A stretch of 64,000 nt of DNA from Escherichia coli (GTDB lineage: Bacteria > Pseudomonadota > Gammaproteobacteria > Enterobacterales > Enterobacteriaceae): assembly GCF_030013595.1 (NCBI RefSeq), contig NZ_CP122769.1; one strand, written 5' to 3'. Each line of letters begins with the position of its first letter. Positions within the stretch are counted from its first letter, which is position 1. This document shows positions 1 to 15,000 of this stretch, piece after piece. A program made the position numbers.

Positions 1-3000
1 CCGGGCGGCAGAGCAGCTGCGCAAGGATGGCTCGTGGACCCGTCAAATCACAGTCTTCATTCAGAGCAGCAATTATGCGCAAGGTGAAAACCGCTACAGC
101 AATTGTGGTATCGAGCCGCTTACCGCTACACAGGACACCCGCGATCTGGTTGATGCAGCCATGACCATCCTGAACCGCATTTACAAACCCGGGATAGCGT
201 ATGCGAAAGCTGGGGTAATGCTCTCCGCTATGACTGACGGCACAGAGCAACTCAGCCTGTTTGATGAGCGCCCGGCCAGGCCTGGCAGTCAGGCACTGAT
301 GAAAGTTATGGACCGGTTCAATAAAGAAAAGCGCGGAGCTCTGTTTTTGCTGGGGGAAGGCATTCAACAGGATTTTCGTATGAAACAGGCCATGCTATCA
401 CCGAGATATACGACCCGCTGGGATGAATTACTCGTTGTAAAAGCGTAGCGGCCATGACCGGCATGGCCGTACTCATCAAAAGTGAAAGTAACTTTAGGCC
501 CCGCGAGCTTTTTCGATTGCGCCCTGCAAAGTTGCTGCGTCCATAGCCCCGGGGATAAATGTGGTAGTCGCCGCATTCGGCTTTTTCATATTCATAATGA
601 TGAAGCCGGGTGTGCCGGTGATCCCAAGCGCTTCGCCCAGCTGCATGTTGCCGGAGATCACGTTTTCATATCGGTTTTTTTCCCTGTCAGAAAACGTGCT
701 GTTAAACCCTGACTTATCCACCACAGTATTAAAGTCGCTGAGTTCGAATTTGCGTTGAGAGGTCATGAAGGTATGAGCCACAGCCATCAGGTTGTTGTGG
801 TATTTACGATAGGCTTCAGCACCGAAATTCTGATAGACGTGCAGACCCGTAGCGGCCCCCATGGCAGATACAGGTTTTGAACCGGCAAAAATCGGGAATT
901 CTTTAAAGAAGAATTTTACATCTTTGCTCTGATTCATTACCGATTCAACAACAGGTGTAACCCGCATGCAGTAAATACACTGATAGTCGAAGAACTCGAT
1001 TACCGCGACGTCGGCGTCATCCGGGCCGATGTTTGGCGTCTCCTTGGTATCCAGCAGAGCTGGCGCATATGGAATTATTCGTTCCACTGAGGCACTTACG
1101 TTCTGATTTTCCAGCGCCTTACCTGCTTCCACTAAATAATGGGGATTTTTTACCAGGTAAGTAGCGGCAATTTTGCCAATTTCTTCCTCACTGAGCACCT
1201 TCGGTTTAAAATAAGTTGCCGCGATTAACGCCGAGGCAGCGGTAGCAATTACCGCAGAAATTAAAATCGTGGCCATCGGTTTTAAATAAAATTCTTTAGA
1301 CATAGCTACCTTTATGCTTTTCAGCCTGTTAGTTATTAACCTGCGATGGATTATACTGGCCCGGTAAATCGGAATTATTCGTGAAACAATGCTTTTTGGA
1401 GATTAAAGGATGATTAGGCAGGGCTTTATACTCACAACCGCAATGCTTTTGAGTGGTTGTGGATATCATTTCGCAAACCAGGTAGATGCGTACGATCTAA
1501 TGCCTCGTCCTGTTACAAATAAAAGGTTTCAGATAGTCCCTCCGGACGAAAGTATTCAGTCCAGAATGTTTTCAGGCCGTTTTGCTGATGGATTAGCAAA
1601 AAAAGGAGTCATTATTTCCACTCACCAGCCAGATTATGTGCTCAGGTTCCGAATGAGCAGCTCACAGGAGAACATGCAGTATAGCGAGCAGCTTCTTACT
1701 GGGGTGACAGGCTACGTTGTAGATAAAAAGACAACGAGAACTGACAAGCATGGCGAATCGCATACTGACTATGACTACAGGCCGGTCGATGGGGTAATAG
1801 GCACTGAGACGATGTCGCAGATGCACTATATGCGACAGCTGGATGTCGAGGTATACCCGTCAGCGAAAGGAGCAAAGCAGGTTCTGAAAGTGAGTATGCA
1901 AAGCAATGCACCTGTGCCGTCAGACAGCATTGCTTATTCAGCAATGATCGACGCCTTTACTGATAAATTTGATGCGCCGCTGCGTTCCGGAAATTATGTT
2001 GCAGTGATCCCCTGGAACTGAAAGCAGACGGCGGGAAGAGAATGTTCAAAAGTGACTTTTGGACACGCACATAAACGTGGCTATCGCCCTCCCCCATTAA
2101 AATCATAAAGTCGGTAAAGATCGCCCATCGTGATGGAATTGGGCTTATTAATGATTAGATACTGTAACTGTTCTTTATGTTGAGTACTGGCGGCTGCATT
2201 CATAAGCACTTCCAGGTAGAACTTGTAGCCTATGCTTCGCTCTGAATACATATACTGGAACTGCATCAGTAAAATGCCTGACATAACATACAACAGCAGC
2301 AGACTGAGTAACACAGTGCTATCAGGCTGTTCCAGTGCCATACTGACATACCCTGAACCCAGAATGCACAGAAGCCAACCCGTCATTAGAGCAGGCACCC
2401 TACGACTCAGACGTTCATAACAACGTTTTATTACGGGATCCCGGAGATACTTTTTGTCAGGTATCCCCGTTGCCCTGATGACGAAGTTACTGAGTATCGA
2501 CATCTTTTTTCCTTCTGGACGCTCTCAGTCAATAAATCAGGCCAGGCGCTCATTGAAAGCTACCACGAGCTGCGAATCGGGATTTTTTACCAGTTCGGGC
2601 CGGATAACTTTTAGTTGCCTCGTTGGGGCGAGCTCATCTGTAGGCCTGATGGTGGTATTACCCGGCCCCTTGCGGGTACTGTCGGTGTTTACCTTGAGCT
2701 TTTTATTTCCCAGGTAGCTTTCCATCTTTTTAGAGATGGTGTCACCTGTGGTCGCAACACCAGAGAGTTCCTTTAGTTGTTCACCTTGATCCATTTGTAC
2801 CGATGACATCAGAAATACGATTCCTGGATCGTTTTCCGTTCCACAGGCTCCGTACTGACATTGTGCAGCGAAAACGGGCTGTACACCTACAGCAACCAGC
2901 ATTAACGTACTCAGTAAAGTAGATTTCATACACACCTCTTACAGTCGGAAAAGTTACTTTTGCGCAGCGCCCATTTGGGTCACCAGGTTTTCCGGGCTCA

Positions 3001-12000: not shown

Positions 12001-15000
12001 CTCCAAAACTGCCGCCAGCATTGAGATAATTGACCGGATCGGCCGTAGGCATGTCATAGCCTTCGAGTTTTTGGTCCATTATTTTTTGAAGTAAGAATGG
12101 GTCTGATTCCATTTCGGATTTATTAACGGTAATAACGCCATCATCACCGATGGTATATTGCCTTTTAATATCTAGAGTTGACTGAAACGAAGCGTCATCG
12201 ATCAGATTCATGCCCTTCGCGGCAAGTATAATAGTGTTCTTTAATTCATCAGCGGAGATCATGCCTTCACTAATGCGCTGAGCTGATGTCCCATCCTTTG
12301 AAACCAGGAAAATTGTAGGTACCTCTCGAATTTTAAATTGATCAATAATTTGTGCATTGGGGATGTTAAAATCCTGAAAAAGGCCATTATGCAATGGCCT
12401 TCCATCCATACTGATTGGAAGAATATCTACCGAATAATAGTTCTGCATAAATTGAAGTATTTGGCTCTCTTCGTGGCAAAACTGGCAAGTACTCTGGAAA
12501 AAGAAAAATAAACCTGACTTAGTAAAGATATCTTTCATTACCGTTTGCTGATTTTTTTCAACAACAGTGCGGTGAGCATCCAGTGCCACCTTTTCCACTG
12601 GTTGCCTGCGTTTTTCAGACATCATCGGGTTTTTAAGAAAATAATCTTTTGATTTGTCAGAAAAACGCGTACTGATATCCAGCATTAACCTTTGCGCCGT
12701 GTAATAACGTGATAGATTTTCTGCGGTAGGGTTATCCATTGCCTGCGTTAACAGTCGAGGCATATTCTCTTTTAGCCATTTTGAATTTAAATCTACCTTT
12801 TCCTCTTTTGAAGGCGAGCTAGCAGCACCGGTTGGTGGCAAAACCTTTTCTTCTTCAGCTTCGCTTTTTTTAGCAGGATCGTCATACCAGAAGAAACCCT
12901 TCTTATAAGCCTGGCCTGATACAAAGGGCGTATCTTTTATTAGGGGTTGCTCAGGGCTGGCGTGGGCACCAGTAATTACCAAAGACATAAGCAAAACCAT
13001 CTTTGAAGGCGCTAATGCAATACGAGTCATAGACCGTTCTCCTTTTCTGATGCGGTTATGATGGCATACAAAAAAAAGGTTAGAGCTCGTATAGCATGGT
13101 CGTTTTTATGTTGAAAAGGACGGAAAAGGAGTGCTGACTAAGAAGATAGTCTCGGTGATGGAAAGATCATCCATCTTGCACATTGTGAAAAATCCGGTGT
13201 AACAAAAACATGGTTTTATCGAATATCTAAAAGCAAATATTGCTTTGAAAACAGGTGTATTAAGAGCTGAAAAAAATCATCACCAGTAACGCTGTTTCTA
13301 TATTTCAAAGAAGGAATAGCTAAGGATCAAAGAAGCGAACTTAGGCAAGAATATAAAATATATTAATTGAAAGCGATTAAGAAGTCGTCATGCATAGAAG
13401 GTTTTAGAGAACCTAAGTAGTTTTACGTTTTCAACAGAAAAAAAGGTGAACATTTTTTGGAACGAAGAAAGACTGTATAAAGAAAAATCAAATTATATCT
13501 TTACTTGTCAAGAGTTAATATTTAAGTTGTAACTAATATTTGATTGTAAAGCAAACAACAGAATTTGACTTAAGTCAATATTTAGATTCAGACAAGGCAA
13601 GTTTCGCGATATCTTTTTTAAATTTAATCTAATTCTTCTTGAGAATACCTCTCTATGGCTGAAGCAGTTGAAGATAATCTGCAACGTGGACAATAAGCAT
13701 CATTTGTCACTGGCACAATGTATGGGCGTTTACATTTTTCGCAGGCACCTAGTTCTTCAATTTCTTTCATAGAAGTAAGGATTTCTATTATTTTATTAAC
13801 TTCCGGTGCGCATACAAAGTATCCCAGATTATGAAGGACACTCATTATTCGGTTGAAGTCAATTTGCCGAAAACTCGCTTCCGGATTTATTGGATCAAAA
13901 CCAAAATAGTTAACTGCGACATCAATAACAGCAGAAAAAGCTCGGCGGTTATCTGTGCGTTTGCTCCAGCCCCGGATACCTTTTTTGAGTTTTGTTTTTG
14001 CACCAGGCTCAAAATCGATATTTTCAGCAACATGATTACCGTACAAAATTCGTATTGTATTTTTATTTGCCCCAAGCGACATAGTCCTTGCTGCTCGCAA
14101 TAGAGCATTAGCTTTTGTTTGATCGACCTTTGCCATATTAATAATCCTTTAACATAACTTTATTTGTTAAAGTGTTGAACACATCCTGACGGTGACTGGT
14201 GAACATAGTGTCATAACGTAATAGTTCCATCAAATCATCACTAACTTTTCCTAACCGGATGTCAGCAGACAATTCATAAGCCCAGGCAAAAACTTTCGTT
14301 TTAAGTGAAACACTCTCTTCAATATGCCCTTGTGAGAAAGCAATTGTACGTGGGAAAAGAACGACATCGTTAATTGTTTTTAACGATGAATAACCAATGT
14401 CTTTAATAGCATCAGCTGTAGTTGGTTTTAAACCAAAGAAAACACTTACAAACTCTGGTGCGAGCATTGAGATAAAGAACACCTGCATAAAGTAGTCATT
14501 CTGTATATCAACACATTTAGAACGCAACTCATGAATCTTCTTGGGATTATAGATATCCACTGTACCATTCAGAAAAGTCACTTTTTCACCGGCATCGTAA
14601 ATACCATAGTCAATATCATTTGTATCATATTCACGAATTACATTGGAATCACCGTCCAAGACCGCAGAAAAAAACCTCTCCCATGTAATTTCCTTTCCGA
14701 GTGTACGCGGAACCAAAAAACTACCTGGACGTGTTTCCACTTCAAAAGCTAAATCAGCGGCTGTACTAAATCCTTTCCCAAATAGGCGACGCTGGAGAAG
14801 AGGAGTCCCAGTTTGATATGCAGAAGATCCATGCACAGGCAATAACATTAAAAATGCACGGTAACTACGAATAAGCGAAATCTCAGTGCGGAAAAGTTTA
14901 CCGAGTAAGCTACGAGTTAAATTATCAGATTCTGACATGTGCTGATTGTCCTTGCGCCATTACAATTGTTCAAATCTTCAACATGGATTTTTTGTTAGGT

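What the first reader, a model, noticed from the sequence alone, without database searches (positions are those of the whole stretch)
494..13030. Three distinct thioredoxin-fold redox proteins accompany the pilus assembly genes
A membrane-anchored DsbA-like protein (CIYC), a DsbC-like isomerase with the exact CGYC active site, and a TraF/TrbB-like protein (CQFC) are all encoded within 13 kb of traG/traH. This implies the element brings its own periplasmic disulfide machinery for Cys-rich transfer proteins.
Basis: partly seen in the sequence, partly recalled or inferred. Interest (0 to 1): 0.3.

Follow-up and report, generated by a model that had tools for sequence, protein, structure and literature searches.

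The report
IncHI plasmid's own disulfide-folding enzymes
This stretch of a common IncHI2 resistance plasmid does encode three periplasmic thioredoxin-fold redox proteins beside the pilus genes trhF, trhH and trhG, but the arrangement and its role in folding cysteine-rich transfer proteins were already described for the related plasmid R27, so the finding is correct and ordinary.

Summary
Window 494-13030 holds three real thioredoxin-fold genes, all on the minus strand:
- 494-1303: a DsbA-superfamily protein with CIYC.
- 2954-3703: a full-length DsbC homologue with CGYC.
- 11984-13030: TrhF, a TraF-family protein with CQFC, overlapping trhH and followed by trhG.

Each CxxC sits in a canonical thioredoxin context, shown by Pfam, PDB homology and two AlphaFold models.

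The window is IncHI2 plasmid backbone, 99% or more identical over 1-14000 in 536 plasmid records. The block is syntenic with R27 (IncHI1) genes R0126-R0135. Published array data show that whole block derepressed 6-27 fold in an htdA mutant at 25 °C, with a sharp boundary at mucB.

- The "DsbA-like" protein resembles the trimeric oxidase/isomerases BcfH and ScsC, not classical DsbA.
- A fourth enzyme, HtdT (DsbP-like), lies in the other transfer region, outside the window.
- No DsbB or DsbD is annotated on the reference plasmid, so recycling probably depends on the host.
- The same gene order recurs in a Klebsiella IncFIB/IncHI1B plasmid at about 45% identity.

The concept is known (Elton 2005, R27). 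Only the R0135-type protein remains functionally uncharacterised. Interest is low.

The parts
494..1303 (-). DsbA-superfamily protein of the BcfH/ScsC type (orthologue of R27 R0135, annotated 'dsbA, outer membrane protein'). It has an N-terminal hydrophobic segment (residues 10-32), a ScsC_N-like helical stalk (about 39-83) and a DsbA-type catalytic domain with CIYC109-112 and a Thr-Pro loop (T231-P232).
   Evidence: Pfam DSBA E 6.5e-20. ScsC_N is only E 0.011. PDB hits are BcfH 7JVE E 1.5e-35, plus ScsC, WpDsbA2 and Com1-type proteins. The AF2 model has pLDDT 88.8, and its Foldseek top hits are BcfH, PmScsC and CcScsC over about 240-265 columns. C109, C112 and P137 are invariant, and T231 and P232 nearly invariant, in 50 homologues.
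1410..2021 (+). Lipoprotein (lipobox LLSGC), orthologue of R27 R0134. It lies inside the co-regulated block; function unknown.
   Evidence: ORF and N-terminus. Annotated 'lipoprotein' in IncHI1. 69% aa identity between IncHI1 and IncHI2. R0134 rises 5.98-fold in the htdA mutant.
2081..2503 (-). Small ORF of 140 aa with a hydrophobic core, orthologue of R27 R0133; function unknown.
   Evidence: 45% aa identity and dN/dS 0.21 against IncHI1. R0133 rises 10.3-fold. No Pfam or NCBIfam hit.
2537..2929 (-). Small secreted protein of 130 aa, orthologue of R27 R0132. A signal peptide is followed at once by a C-x4-C pair (AAQ-CQYGAC). The gene starts 24 nt downstream of the DsbC-like gene.
   Evidence: The Cx4C is conserved in IncHI1 (CQFGAC) and in the positional equivalent on Klebsiella pKP9 (CGPVAC). 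R0132 rises 8.1-fold.
2954..3703 (-). DsbC homologue (orthologue of R27 R0131 'dsbC'). It has a signal peptide, an N-terminal dimerisation domain, a thioredoxin domain with CGYC129-132, a second Cys pair C172/C199 and a Thr-Pro loop.
   Evidence: Pfam DsbC_N plus Thioredoxin_2. PDB DsbC structures at E 1e-43 to 1e-35 with all four Cys aligned. NCBIfam DsbC equivalog scores 178 bits, below the 215 cut-off. 84% identity to IncHI1.
3851..4390 (+). Lytic transglycosylase (orthologue of R27 R0130 bfpH/trbN-like), a T4SS accessory muramidase.
   Evidence: Pfam SLT E 6e-5. Annotation. R0130 rises 20.6-fold in the htdA mutant.
4473..5039 (+). HAD-domain protein (HAD_SAK_2), orthologue of R27 R0129. 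It is co-regulated with the block; function unknown.
   Evidence: Pfam E 7.1e-20. R0129 rises 19.5-fold. A homologue at 41% identity accompanies the cassette on pKP9.
5147..6436 (-). HNH endonuclease-domain protein. It is an IncHI2-specific insertion between trhG and the HAD/SLT genes and is not part of the redox set.
   Evidence: Pfam HNH_2 E 1.5e-10. Absent at this position in IncHI1. The Klebsiella IncFIB/IncHI1B plasmid carries a helicase gene at the same site.
6617..10570 (-). TrhG (TraG-N family, 1317 aa). It has 4 Cys, all between residues 164 and 249, and is a likely client.
10579..11994 (-). TrhH (TraH family). It has 8 Cys in the longest ORF, 6 of them after the signal sequence, and is a likely client and the binding partner of TrhF. 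Its start overlaps the trhF stop by 11 nt.
   Evidence: Pfam TraH E 4.8e-57. PGAP coordinates. Cys count.
11984..13030 (-). TrhF (orthologue of R27 R0126), a TraF-family pilus-assembly protein. It has a signal peptide, a low-confidence linker, a helical N-domain (about 83-171), a thioredoxin domain (172-273) with CQFC182-185 and Pro238, and a C-terminal extension (about 275-348, confidently modelled to about residue 330).
   Evidence: Pfam TraF E 2.6e-51. TIGR02740 scores 328.7 bits. In 142 homologues C182 and C185 are at least 90% conserved and P238 is invariant. AF2 model pLDDT 86.9. Foldseek top hits are StoA, ResA and thioredoxin.

Best explanation
The region is the 'F-operon side' of the IncHI transfer system: trhF-trhH-trhG followed by a conserved accessory block of HAD, SLT muramidase, DsbC homologue, two small ORFs, lipoprotein and a BcfH/ScsC-type DsbA.

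All three thioredoxin-fold proteins are exported to the periplasm. They are made together with the type IV secretion/pilus machinery: in R27 this happens only at permissive temperature, under HtdA control.

Proposed mechanism (the biochemical steps are inferred):
1. The DsbA-type protein is held at or near the inner membrane by its N-terminal hydrophobic segment. It probably oligomerises through its ScsC_N-like helix. It introduces or reshuffles disulfides in Tra proteins as they emerge.
2. The DsbC homologue forms the usual V-shaped dimer. It corrects non-native disulfides in the very Cys-rich TrhN (32 Cys), TrhU (16), TrhH and TrhG.
3. TrhF binds TrhH through its helical N-domain, as F TraF binds TraH. 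It contributes a TrbB-like CxxC thioredoxin domain at the assembly site.
4. A fourth enzyme, HtdT (DsbP-like), is supplied from the other transfer region.
5. The reference plasmid has no annotated DsbB or DsbD. The catalysts are therefore probably re-oxidised or re-reduced by host DsbB, host DsbD or small-molecule oxidants.

The plasmid enzymes overlap with host DsbC. This overlap should make transfer less dependent on the folding capacity of whichever host carries the plasmid.
For: Identity and fold of the three proteins.

Operon structure: the trhF stop overlaps the trhH start by 11 nt, and trhH and trhG are 8 nt apart.

Plasmid identity: IncHI2, with 536 plasmid records at least 99% identical over window 1-14000.

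Synteny: the gene order is the same in IncHI1 and in a Klebsiella IncFIB/IncHI1B plasmid at about 43-47% identity.

Selection: between IncHI1 and IncHI2, dN is 0.10-0.16 while synonymous sites are saturated.

Clients: TrhN 32 Cys, TrhU 16, TrhH 8, TrhG 4.

Co-regulation in R27 (drR27 versus R27 at 25 °C): trhF 27.3-fold, trhH 13.3, trhG 7.7, R0129 19.5, R0130 20.6, dsbC 12.96, R0132 8.1, R0133 10.3, R0134 6.0, dsbA 5.96, htdT 13.9. mucB and mucA change 1.47 and 1.27-fold. There is no effect at 37 °C (PMC7366339 supplement).

Genetics summarised in PMC10838148: R27 dsbC deletion lowers transfer about 10^4-fold only in a dsbC-null host. Deleting Rts1 Orf206, a distant DsbA-family relative of R0135, lowers transfer more than 100-fold even in a dsbC+ host.

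No DsbB or DsbD is annotated on pSE08-00436-1.

HtdT resembles DsbP: 4ML1 at E 1e-12.
Against: - No experiment exists on the IncHI2 genes themselves. All functional data come from the R27 orthologues, which are 75-85% identical.
- The DsbC-like and DsbA-like genes are not in the trhFHG operon. Divergently oriented genes separate them from it.
- The function of R0135 is explicitly called unknown in PMC10838148.
- ScsC-family proteins elsewhere serve copper tolerance.
- As I recall the Elton 2005 abstract (paper not held), TrhF(R27) did not rescue DTT hypersensitivity, so its CxxC may not act as a general oxidoreductase.
- R0131 changed only 1.53-fold between 25 and 37 °C in wild-type R27.
- PLSDB gene tables are incomplete, so the absence of a DsbB or DsbD is not proven.
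- Membrane anchoring versus cleavage of the DsbA-like N-terminus is unresolved. An A-S-A motif at residues 24-26 could be a signal-peptidase site.
Confidence: 0.8

Rival explanations
1. The DsbC-like and DsbA-like cassette (window 494-3703) is not dedicated to conjugation. It would be a general envelope-fitness module, for example ScsC-like copper or oxidative-stress tolerance, or folding of other plasmid surface proteins such as the large Ig-like proteins. On this reading it merely sits next to the tra genes.
For: - The nearest solved relatives include the copper-tolerance ScsC proteins.
- The cassette is separated from trhFHG by divergently oriented genes and a variable insertion site.
- A copy lies away from annotated tra genes, near repA, on the hybrid Klebsiella plasmid pKP9.
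- The R27 dsbC deletion is silent in a wild-type host.
- The function of R0135 is unknown.
Against: - In R27 every gene from R0129 to R0135 is derepressed 6-21 fold in the htdA mutant at 25 °C and not at 37 °C, exactly like the tra operons, and the effect stops at mucB.
- The order TraF-TraH-TraG-SLT-DsbC-x-x-DsbA is kept across IncHI1, IncHI2 and a Klebsiella IncFIB/IncHI1B plasmid.
- R27 dsbC deletion does reduce transfer 10^4-fold in a dsbC-null host.
- No ScsB, ScsA or ScsD partner genes are annotated on the plasmid.
Confidence: 0.12
2. TrhF is purely a structural pilus-assembly factor like F TraF. Its CQFC would be a non-catalytic remnant or a structural disulfide, so only two of the three proteins in the window are real redox enzymes.
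For: - F TraF functions without any CxxC (PMC11315126 and PMC7555446).
- As I recall the Elton 2005 abstract (not held), overproduced TrhF(R27) and its periplasmic C-terminal domain did not complement in assays where DsbC(R27), HtdT and TrbB did.
- TrhF scores below the TrbB equivalog cut-off: 56.5 bits against 132.
Against: - Both Cys are at least 90% conserved and the loop Pro238 is invariant across 142 homologues sharing only 22-35% identity. That pattern is expected for a catalytic site and not for a relic.
- The motif sits at the canonical helix N-terminus of a confidently modelled thioredoxin fold.
- Elements with a CxxC-less TraF always also carry TrbB, and R27 has no TrbB.
- A narrow substrate range, for example TrhH only, would explain negative general assays.
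Confidence: 0.3
3. The clustering is coincidental or an ORF-calling artefact.
For: None found.
Against: - All three are annotated CDS in hundreds of records.
- They have strong family and structure matches.
- They are conserved under purifying selection, with the same order in three plasmid lineages.
Confidence: 0.01

Closest known systems
R27 (IncHI1) TrhF (R0126), DsbC (R0131), HtdT (R0027) and R0135 'dsbA'. Source: Elton et al. 2005, J Bacteriol 187:8267 (not held; cited through PMC10838148, PMC7366339 and PMC11315126).
   Same: These are direct orthologues with the same gene order. Identities are TrhF 84%, DsbC-like 84% and DsbA-like 75%. The numbering and names were confirmed from the PMC7366339 supplement. 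The idea is the same: plasmid-encoded thioredoxin-fold proteins assist T4SS assembly.
   Different: IncHI2 carries an extra HNH endonuclease gene between trhG and the HAD gene. Synonymous sites are saturated between the two lineages. No experiments exist for the IncHI2 copies.
F plasmid TraF and TrbB
   Same: TrhF has the TraF architecture, a helical N-domain plus a C-terminal thioredoxin domain, and is encoded next to traH. Its thioredoxin domain also matches TrbB (E 2.4e-15). The presumed clients are TraN, TraU and TraH.
   Different: F splits the roles between TraF without CxxC and TrbB with CxxC. TrhF is a single protein that keeps CxxC. It is about 100 aa longer than F TraF (247 aa) and has a C-terminal extension confidently modelled to about residue 330. 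It fails the TraF and TrbB equivalog cut-offs and passes TIGR02740 'TraF-like'.
Chromosomal DsbC (E. coli 1EEJ, Salmonella 4I5Q, 'protein disulfide isomerase II' 4NPB)
   Same: It has the full two-domain architecture, the identical CGYC motif, a conserved second Cys pair and the Thr-Pro loop. E-values are 1e-43 to 1e-35.
   Different: It is a diverged plasmid paralogue, scoring 178 bits against the 215-bit equivalog cut-off. Homologues are found on about 2,900 plasmid records.
Salmonella BcfH (7JVE), Proteus and Caulobacter ScsC, and the Legionella DsbA2/Coxiella Com1 group
   Same: These are the best sequence and fold matches of the 269-aa protein. They share a DsbA-type catalytic domain preceded by a long helical N-terminal region. 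BcfH and PmScsC are trimers. BcfH has a trans-proline loop with the same Thr-Pro motif. Legionella DsbA2 is required for Dot/Icm T4SS assembly (PMC5403849).
   Different: Identity to BcfH is only about 30%. The ScsC_N match is below threshold (E 0.011). The plasmid clade has a 23-residue uncharged N-terminal segment, and in some members a linker of 27 aa or more, which suggests a membrane tether rather than a soluble protein. The active site is CIYC. The oligomeric state is untested.
DsbP of IncA/C plasmids (4ML1), SXT S054 and Rts1 Orf212
   Same: HtdT, encoded outside the window on the same plasmid type, matches DsbP at E 1e-12. It sits next to trhV in the same transfer-gene neighbourhood as Rts1 Orf212, which lies between traV and traC.
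   Different: HtdT is not in the window. The window's DsbC-like protein is much closer to chromosomal DsbC than to DsbP (E 3.7e-12).
Rts1 (IncT) Orf206
   Same: It is a DsbA-family protein encoded in a MOBH/MPF_F transfer region. Deleting it lowers conjugation more than 100-fold.
   Different: It is only a distant relative, with 31% identity over 54 residues around the active site (E 6e-7). It lies directly upstream of traL.

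Membership tests
DsbC family (dimeric periplasmic disulfide isomerase) | N-terminal dimerisation domain (DsbC_N) | tested here: met
   Pfam PF10411 E 7.4e-14 over residues 32-89. The alignment to DsbC structures starts at residue 32-35.
DsbC family (dimeric periplasmic disulfide isomerase) | [quoted passage not shown] | tested here: met
   CGYC129-132 aligns with CGYC of 4NPB and 4I5Q. GTP218-219 aligns with GTPA.
DsbC family (dimeric periplasmic disulfide isomerase) | Second, structural disulfide in the helical insert | tested here: met
   C172 and C199 align with the corresponding Cys pair of 4NPB and 4I5Q.
DsbC family (dimeric periplasmic disulfide isomerase) | Scores as the housekeeping DsbC equivalog (NCBIfam NF008129) | tested here: not met
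   178.3 bits against a cut-off of 215. It is a diverged plasmid paralogue of DsbC, not the chromosomal equivalog.
DsbC family (dimeric periplasmic disulfide isomerase) | Homodimer with isomerase activity, kept reduced by DsbD | not testable with these tools
   This needs biochemistry. The R27 orthologue's genetics are known only second-hand.
BcfH/ScsC-type oligomeric DsbA-like proteins | DsbA-type catalytic domain (thioredoxin fold with helical insertion) and CxxC | tested here: met
   Pfam DSBA E 6.5e-20. In the model, strand 99-105 is followed by CIYC109-112 at the start of helix 110-125, with a helical insert at 144-225. Catalytic-domain TM-score, normalised to the target, is 0.83-0.88 to ScsC catalytic domains.
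BcfH/ScsC-type oligomeric DsbA-like proteins | N-terminal helical oligomerisation region (ScsC_N) | tested here: inconclusive
   Pfam ScsC_N E 0.011, 15.8 bits against a cut-off of 25.8. However, most of the homologues at about 35-41% identity carry PF18312. The model has helices 39-52 and 54-83, and Foldseek aligns about 240-265 columns with full-length BcfH and PmScsC.
BcfH/ScsC-type oligomeric DsbA-like proteins | Trimer formation with dual oxidase/isomerase activity | not testable with these tools
   No multimer prediction or assay is available.
Classical monomeric DsbA (EcDsbA type) | Soluble monomer with no N-terminal extension, whose closest relatives are DsbA oxidases | tested here: not met
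   About 95 residues precede the catalytic domain. Classical DsbA structures match only weakly, for example 3HD5 at E 6.8e-5 against BcfH at 1.5e-35.
TraF family of F-type (MPF_F) pilus assembly proteins | Matches the TraF family models | tested here: met
   Pfam PF13728 E 2.6e-51 covering the full profile. TIGR02740 TraF-like scores 328.7 bits against 232.25. The strict F-TraF equivalog TIGR02739 is not reached: 113.5 bits against 204.6.
TraF family of F-type (MPF_F) pilus assembly proteins | C-terminal thioredoxin fold | tested here: met
   The AF2 model has a beta-alpha-beta-alpha-beta-beta-alpha domain at 172-273 with pLDDT about 98. Foldseek gives probability 1.00 to StoA, ResA and thioredoxin.
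TraF family of F-type (MPF_F) pilus assembly proteins | Encoded with traH and traG in an MPF_F transfer region | tested here: met
   trhF overlaps trhH by 11 nt and trhG follows. The plasmid is typed MPF_F/MOBH.
TrbB (F-type thiol-disulfide isomerase) | Short protein of about 160-180 aa scoring as the TrbB equivalog | tested here: not met
   TIGR02738 scores 56.5 bits against 132, and the protein is 348 aa. It works like TrbB only in having CxxC in the same fold.

The most novel reading that the evidence does not exclude
The least understood part is the R0135-type protein. It may be a membrane-tethered, oligomeric BcfH/ScsC-like enzyme. Together with the DsbC paralogue and the small secreted Cx4C protein encoded between them, it forms a cassette conserved in IncHI1, IncHI2 and a Klebsiella IncFIB/IncHI1B plasmid. 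That cassette might act as a self-contained oxidase/isomerase pair working at the site of T4SS assembly without host DsbA and DsbB, with the Cx4C protein as a dedicated partner or substrate. If so, it would help explain transfer in hosts or at temperatures where host Dsb capacity is limiting.
Probability: 0.2. Interest if true: 0.4.

Novelty: already known. Interest (0 to 1): 0.15.

Why it matters
IncHI2 plasmids are major carriers of mcr-1 and multidrug resistance. The region is 99% or more identical in 536 sequenced plasmids, and the reference plasmid examined here carries mcr-1.1. Their transfer machinery depends on heavily disulfide-bonded proteins.

Plasmid-borne Dsb enzymes that back up the host's folding system are a plausible reason why transfer works across many Enterobacterales. 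They are also a conceivable target for anti-conjugation inhibitors.

None of this is new in principle, because it was worked out for R27 and F about twenty years ago. The small remaining gap is the function, topology and oligomeric state of the R0135-type DsbA/BcfH-like protein and its neighbouring small ORFs.

Tried and rejected
1. I tried to read the primary papers and none is held: Elton 2005 by PMC id and by DOI, Hemmis and Schildbach 2013, Premkumar 2014 on DsbP and Jameson-Lee 2011 on DsbA2. Statements about them come from citing papers or, where marked, from my memory of the abstract.

2. A promoter and terminator scan of 1-4600 found 0 sigma-70-like sites against 7.1 expected. The terminator-like sites found lie inside genes. 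This gave no help with transcription units.

3. The IncHI comparative-genomics preprint says nothing on these genes. The Ig-like protein paper mentions dsbC only for IncC.

4. A direct sequence search of TrhF against the PDB gave nothing significant, so a model plus Foldseek was used instead.

5. HtdT has no Pfam or NCBIfam hit as annotated. It was placed by PDB sequence search as DsbP-like.

6. I considered that Elton's 'DsbC(R27)' might be R0135, because PMC7366339 cites Elton for R0135. I rejected this because the supplement names R0131 'dsbC' and R0135 'dsbA', and PMC10838148 calls R0135 functionally unknown.

7. I considered Rts1 Orf206 as a functional proxy for the 269-aa protein. Similarity is limited to the active-site region, so it is only weak support.

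8. I considered a plasmid-borne DsbB, DsbD or ScsB. None is annotated on pSE08-00436-1, but PLSDB tables are incomplete.

9. dN/dS ratios could not be computed for most genes because synonymous sites are saturated. Only dN and aa identity are reported.

Full report
**What is there**

- 494-1303, 269 aa.
- 2954-3703, 249 aa.
- 11984-13030, 348 aa.

TraH-family (10579-11994/12057) and TraG-N-family (6617-10570) genes lie between them.

Pfam gives these matches:
- The 269-aa protein: DSBA (E 6.5e-20) and Thioredoxin_4.
- The 249-aa protein: DsbC_N (7.4e-14) plus Thioredoxin_2 (3.7e-16).
- The 348-aa protein: TraF (2.6e-51) plus a weak Thioredoxin_2 match.

Cysteine mapping confirms CIYC109-112, CGYC129-132 (plus C172 and C199) and CQFC182-185. 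These are the only cysteines of the first and third proteins.

**Where the window comes from**

Window 1-14000 is at least 99% identical to 536 plasmid records. Another 441 records match at 95-99%. The hosts are Escherichia, Enterobacter, Salmonella, Klebsiella and others, and nearly all records are typed conjugative.

The reference record used here is pSE08-00436-1, typed IncHI2A, MOBH and MPF_F. PGAP calls the three proteins 'DsbA family protein', 'thioredoxin fold domain-containing protein' and 'thioredoxin family protein'.

The rest of the window is collinear with that plasmid. The exceptions are IS-element differences.

**Is each CxxC in a thioredoxin fold?**

The DsbC-like protein needs no model. 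It aligns over residues 33-247 with solved DsbC structures at E 1e-43 to 1e-35. E. coli DsbC 1EEJ matches at 8.4e-37. CGYC, both additional cysteines and the GTP loop align with the two best hits.

The DsbA-like protein aligns over residues 37-268 with 7JVE at E 1.5e-35. PMC11653150 identifies 7JVE as Salmonella BcfH, a trimeric DsbA-like protein with a trans-proline loop.

An AlphaFold model was built on 50 homologues and has pLDDT 88.8. It shows:
- helix 7-31, the hydrophobic segment;
- helices 39-52 and 54-83;
- a DsbA-type domain with the CxxC at the start of helix 110-125.

Foldseek ranks BcfH first, then Proteus and Caulobacter ScsC. Salmonella ScsC, Francisella DsbA1 and Wolbachia DsbA2 follow.

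For TrhF no solved relative exists by sequence. I collected 1,461 relatives and aligned 142 of them. C182 and C185 are at least 90% conserved, and P238 is the only invariant column.

The model has pLDDT 86.9, rising to about 98 in the domain. It places CQFC at the N-terminus of helix 183-199, after strand 172-178, in a classic beta-alpha-beta-alpha-beta-beta-alpha fold. Foldseek returns StoA, ResA, CcmG-type proteins and thioredoxins at probability 1.00.

**Refinements**

1. The 'DsbA-like' protein is not a classical DsbA.
   - Its relatives are the oligomeric BcfH/ScsC/DsbA2/Com1 group.
   - Most of its homologues at about 35-41% identity carry the ScsC_N domain. The window protein matches that domain only weakly (E 0.011).
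   - Its N-terminus has 23 uncharged residues.
   - Sister clades insert a 27-aa linker after this segment. The Klebsiella version has a clear N-terminal hydrophobic helix and a linker of about 50 aa.
   - These features fit a membrane tether. An A-S-A motif at residues 24-26 leaves signal-peptide cleavage possible.

2. The plasmid has a fourth thioredoxin-fold protein, HtdT.
   - It lies beside trhV, downstream of trhB, in the other transfer region, outside the window.
   - It has CDGC and aligns end to end with the DsbC-like proteins at 25% identity.
   - Its best solved relative is the IncA/C plasmid isomerase DsbP (E 1e-12).
   - Its annotated start is probably too short. A GTG 105 nt upstream adds a typical signal peptide.

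3. No DsbB, DsbD, ScsB or CcdA is annotated anywhere on the reference plasmid. The plasmid supplies catalysts but probably not their recycling partners.

4. The gene order TraF-TraH-TraG-[variable insert]-SLT-DsbC-like-small ORF-small ORF-DsbA-like is kept in other lineages.
   - It is found in IncHI1.
   - It is found in a Klebsiella IncFIB/IncHI1B plasmid, at about 43-47% protein identity as measured on the corresponding cassette of pKP9.
   - The cassette also occurs on a hybrid IncFIB/IncFII Klebsiella plasmid.
   - Rts1 (IncT) likewise encodes two DsbA-family proteins, a DsbC-family protein and a TraF-like thioredoxin protein.
   - Carrying several such enzymes is thus shared by the IncHI lineages examined and by Rts1, all typed MOBH/MPF_F.

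**Are the genes functional and tied to transfer?**

Between IncHI1 and IncHI2, synonymous sites are saturated. The three proteins nonetheless keep 75-84% identity, with dN of 0.10-0.16.

The supplement of PMC7366339 fixes the R27 numbering:
- R0126 trhF, R0127 trhH, R0128 trhG.
- R0130 bfpH.
- R0131 'dsbC, thiol:disulfide interchange protein'.
- R0135 'dsbA, outer membrane protein'.
- R0136 and R0137, mucB and mucA.

In the derepressed htdA mutant at 25 °C every gene from R0126 to R0135 rises 6-27 fold. Examples are trhF 27.3, dsbC 12.96, dsbA 5.96 and htdT 13.9. mucB and mucA stay at 1.47 and 1.27. Nothing changes at 37 °C.

The coordinates of the finding thus coincide with a transfer-co-regulated block in the orthologous plasmid.

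The likely clients are strikingly Cys-rich: TrhN 32, TrhU 16, TrhH 8 and TrhG 4, the last four all within residues 164-249. This parallels TraN, TraU and TraH of F.

**What is already known**

PMC10838148 summarises the earlier work:
- Deleting F trbB lowers transfer 10-fold, and deleting R27 dsbC lowers it 10,000-fold. Both effects appear only in dsbC-null hosts.
- Deleting SXT s054 or Rts1 orf206 impairs transfer even in dsbC+ hosts.

From my memory of the Elton 2005 abstract (paper not held):
- R27 trhF, dsbC and htdT were the three genes analysed.
- DsbC(R27) and HtdT relieved DTT hypersensitivity when overproduced.
- TrhF(R27) did not.

PMC10838148 calls the function of R0135 unknown.

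**Mechanism proposed**

Shown here:
- export signals;
- folds and active-site geometry;
- operon linkage of trhF, trhH and trhG;
- conservation;
- co-regulation and genetics in the orthologue.

Inferred:
- The DsbA-type enzyme acts at the membrane on emerging Tra proteins, as an oxidase, an isomerase or both.
- The DsbC paralogue and HtdT reshuffle wrong disulfides and are kept reduced by host DsbD.
- TrhF docks on TrhH through its helical N-domain and brings a TrbB-like active site to the assembly complex.
- Overlap with host DsbC buffers transfer against host differences.

**Rivals**

- The cassette could be a ScsC-like stress module unrelated to transfer. This is disfavoured by the co-regulation and by synteny with the tra genes.
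- TrhF could be purely structural. This remains possible, but it is hard to square with near-universal conservation of both Cys and the loop proline.

**Verdict**

The matter is already known in principle. The only open corner is the R0135-type protein and the small Cx4C protein encoded next to the DsbC paralogue.

Noticed in passing
window 2537-2929 (-); L002 12387-12779; L009 8056-8367: A small secreted protein is encoded 24 nt downstream of the DsbC-like gene. It carries a C-x4-C pair directly after its signal peptide: CQYGAC in IncHI2, CQFGAC in IncHI1 and CGPVAC in the positional equivalent on Klebsiella pKP9. It has no family match. The R27 orthologue R0132 rises 8.1-fold in the htdA mutant. 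It could be a dedicated partner or substrate of the neighbouring Dsb enzymes.
   Followed up: partly
window 5147-6436 (-); L002 about 10040-10285; L012 9581-12922: The gap between trhG and the HAD/SLT genes is a variable insertion site. IncHI2 has a 429-aa HNH endonuclease-domain gene there, IncHI1 has nothing, and the Klebsiella IncFIB/IncHI1B plasmid has a 'viral (Super1) RNA helicase' gene.
   Followed up: partly
L004 8390-9247 (pSE08-00436-1, outside the window): HtdT, the plasmid's fourth thioredoxin-fold protein (CDGC, DsbP-like), seems to have a mis-annotated start. The PGAP start gives no signal peptide. A GTG at 8390 adds MKKLLFPLMAAFAIMANTVTYA, a typical one. As annotated it has no Pfam or NCBIfam match.
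   Followed up: partly
L004 32475-32987 versus window 11984-13030: There is a naming clash. PGAP labels a 170-aa protein next to the TrbC-family gene (trhW position) as 'IncHI-type conjugal transfer protein TrhF'. The protein that the R27 literature calls TrhF (R0126) is annotated only as 'thioredoxin family protein'. This could mislead automated comparisons.
   Followed up: no
window 27204-29735 and 38247-40374: The window has two insertions relative to pSE08-00436-1. One is an IS66-family element with three ORFs, including a 537-aa transposase. The other is an IS21-family element (istA 390 aa, istB 266 aa). The window also lacks the reference's ISApl1 copies at the junctions near 43420 and 57843.
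   Followed up: partly
window 4473-5039 (+): This HAD_SAK_2-domain protein has 7 Cys, including CHRC. It is conserved next to the SLT gene in IncHI1 and accompanies the cassette on pKP9 at 41% identity. Its R27 orthologue R0129 is derepressed 19.5-fold with the tra genes. Function unknown.
   Followed up: no
window 1-4600: The sigma-70 consensus scan found 0 promoter-like sites where dinucleotide shuffles give 7.1 ± 2.8. This is a marked depletion in a region known, in R27, to be tightly silenced and HtdA/H-NS controlled.
   Followed up: no
window 12001-18000: G+C drops to 0.38-0.40 from about 0.46-0.48 on either side. The low-GC stretch runs from the 5' half of trhF and its upstream region through the two hypothetical genes to the mobI side.
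   Followed up: no
L011 (Rts1) 14221-15129, 21969-22814, 27192-27938, 49795-50000: The IncT plasmid Rts1 also encodes four thioredoxin-fold proteins in or near its transfer regions: two DsbA-family, one DsbC-family between traV and traC, and one 'thioredoxin family protein'. They are only distantly related to the IncHI ones.
   Followed up: partly
window 161-448 (+): The window begins inside the 3' end of umuC (orthologue of R27 mucB). In R27 this gene marks the sharp outer boundary of the HtdA-regulated block.
   Followed up: partly
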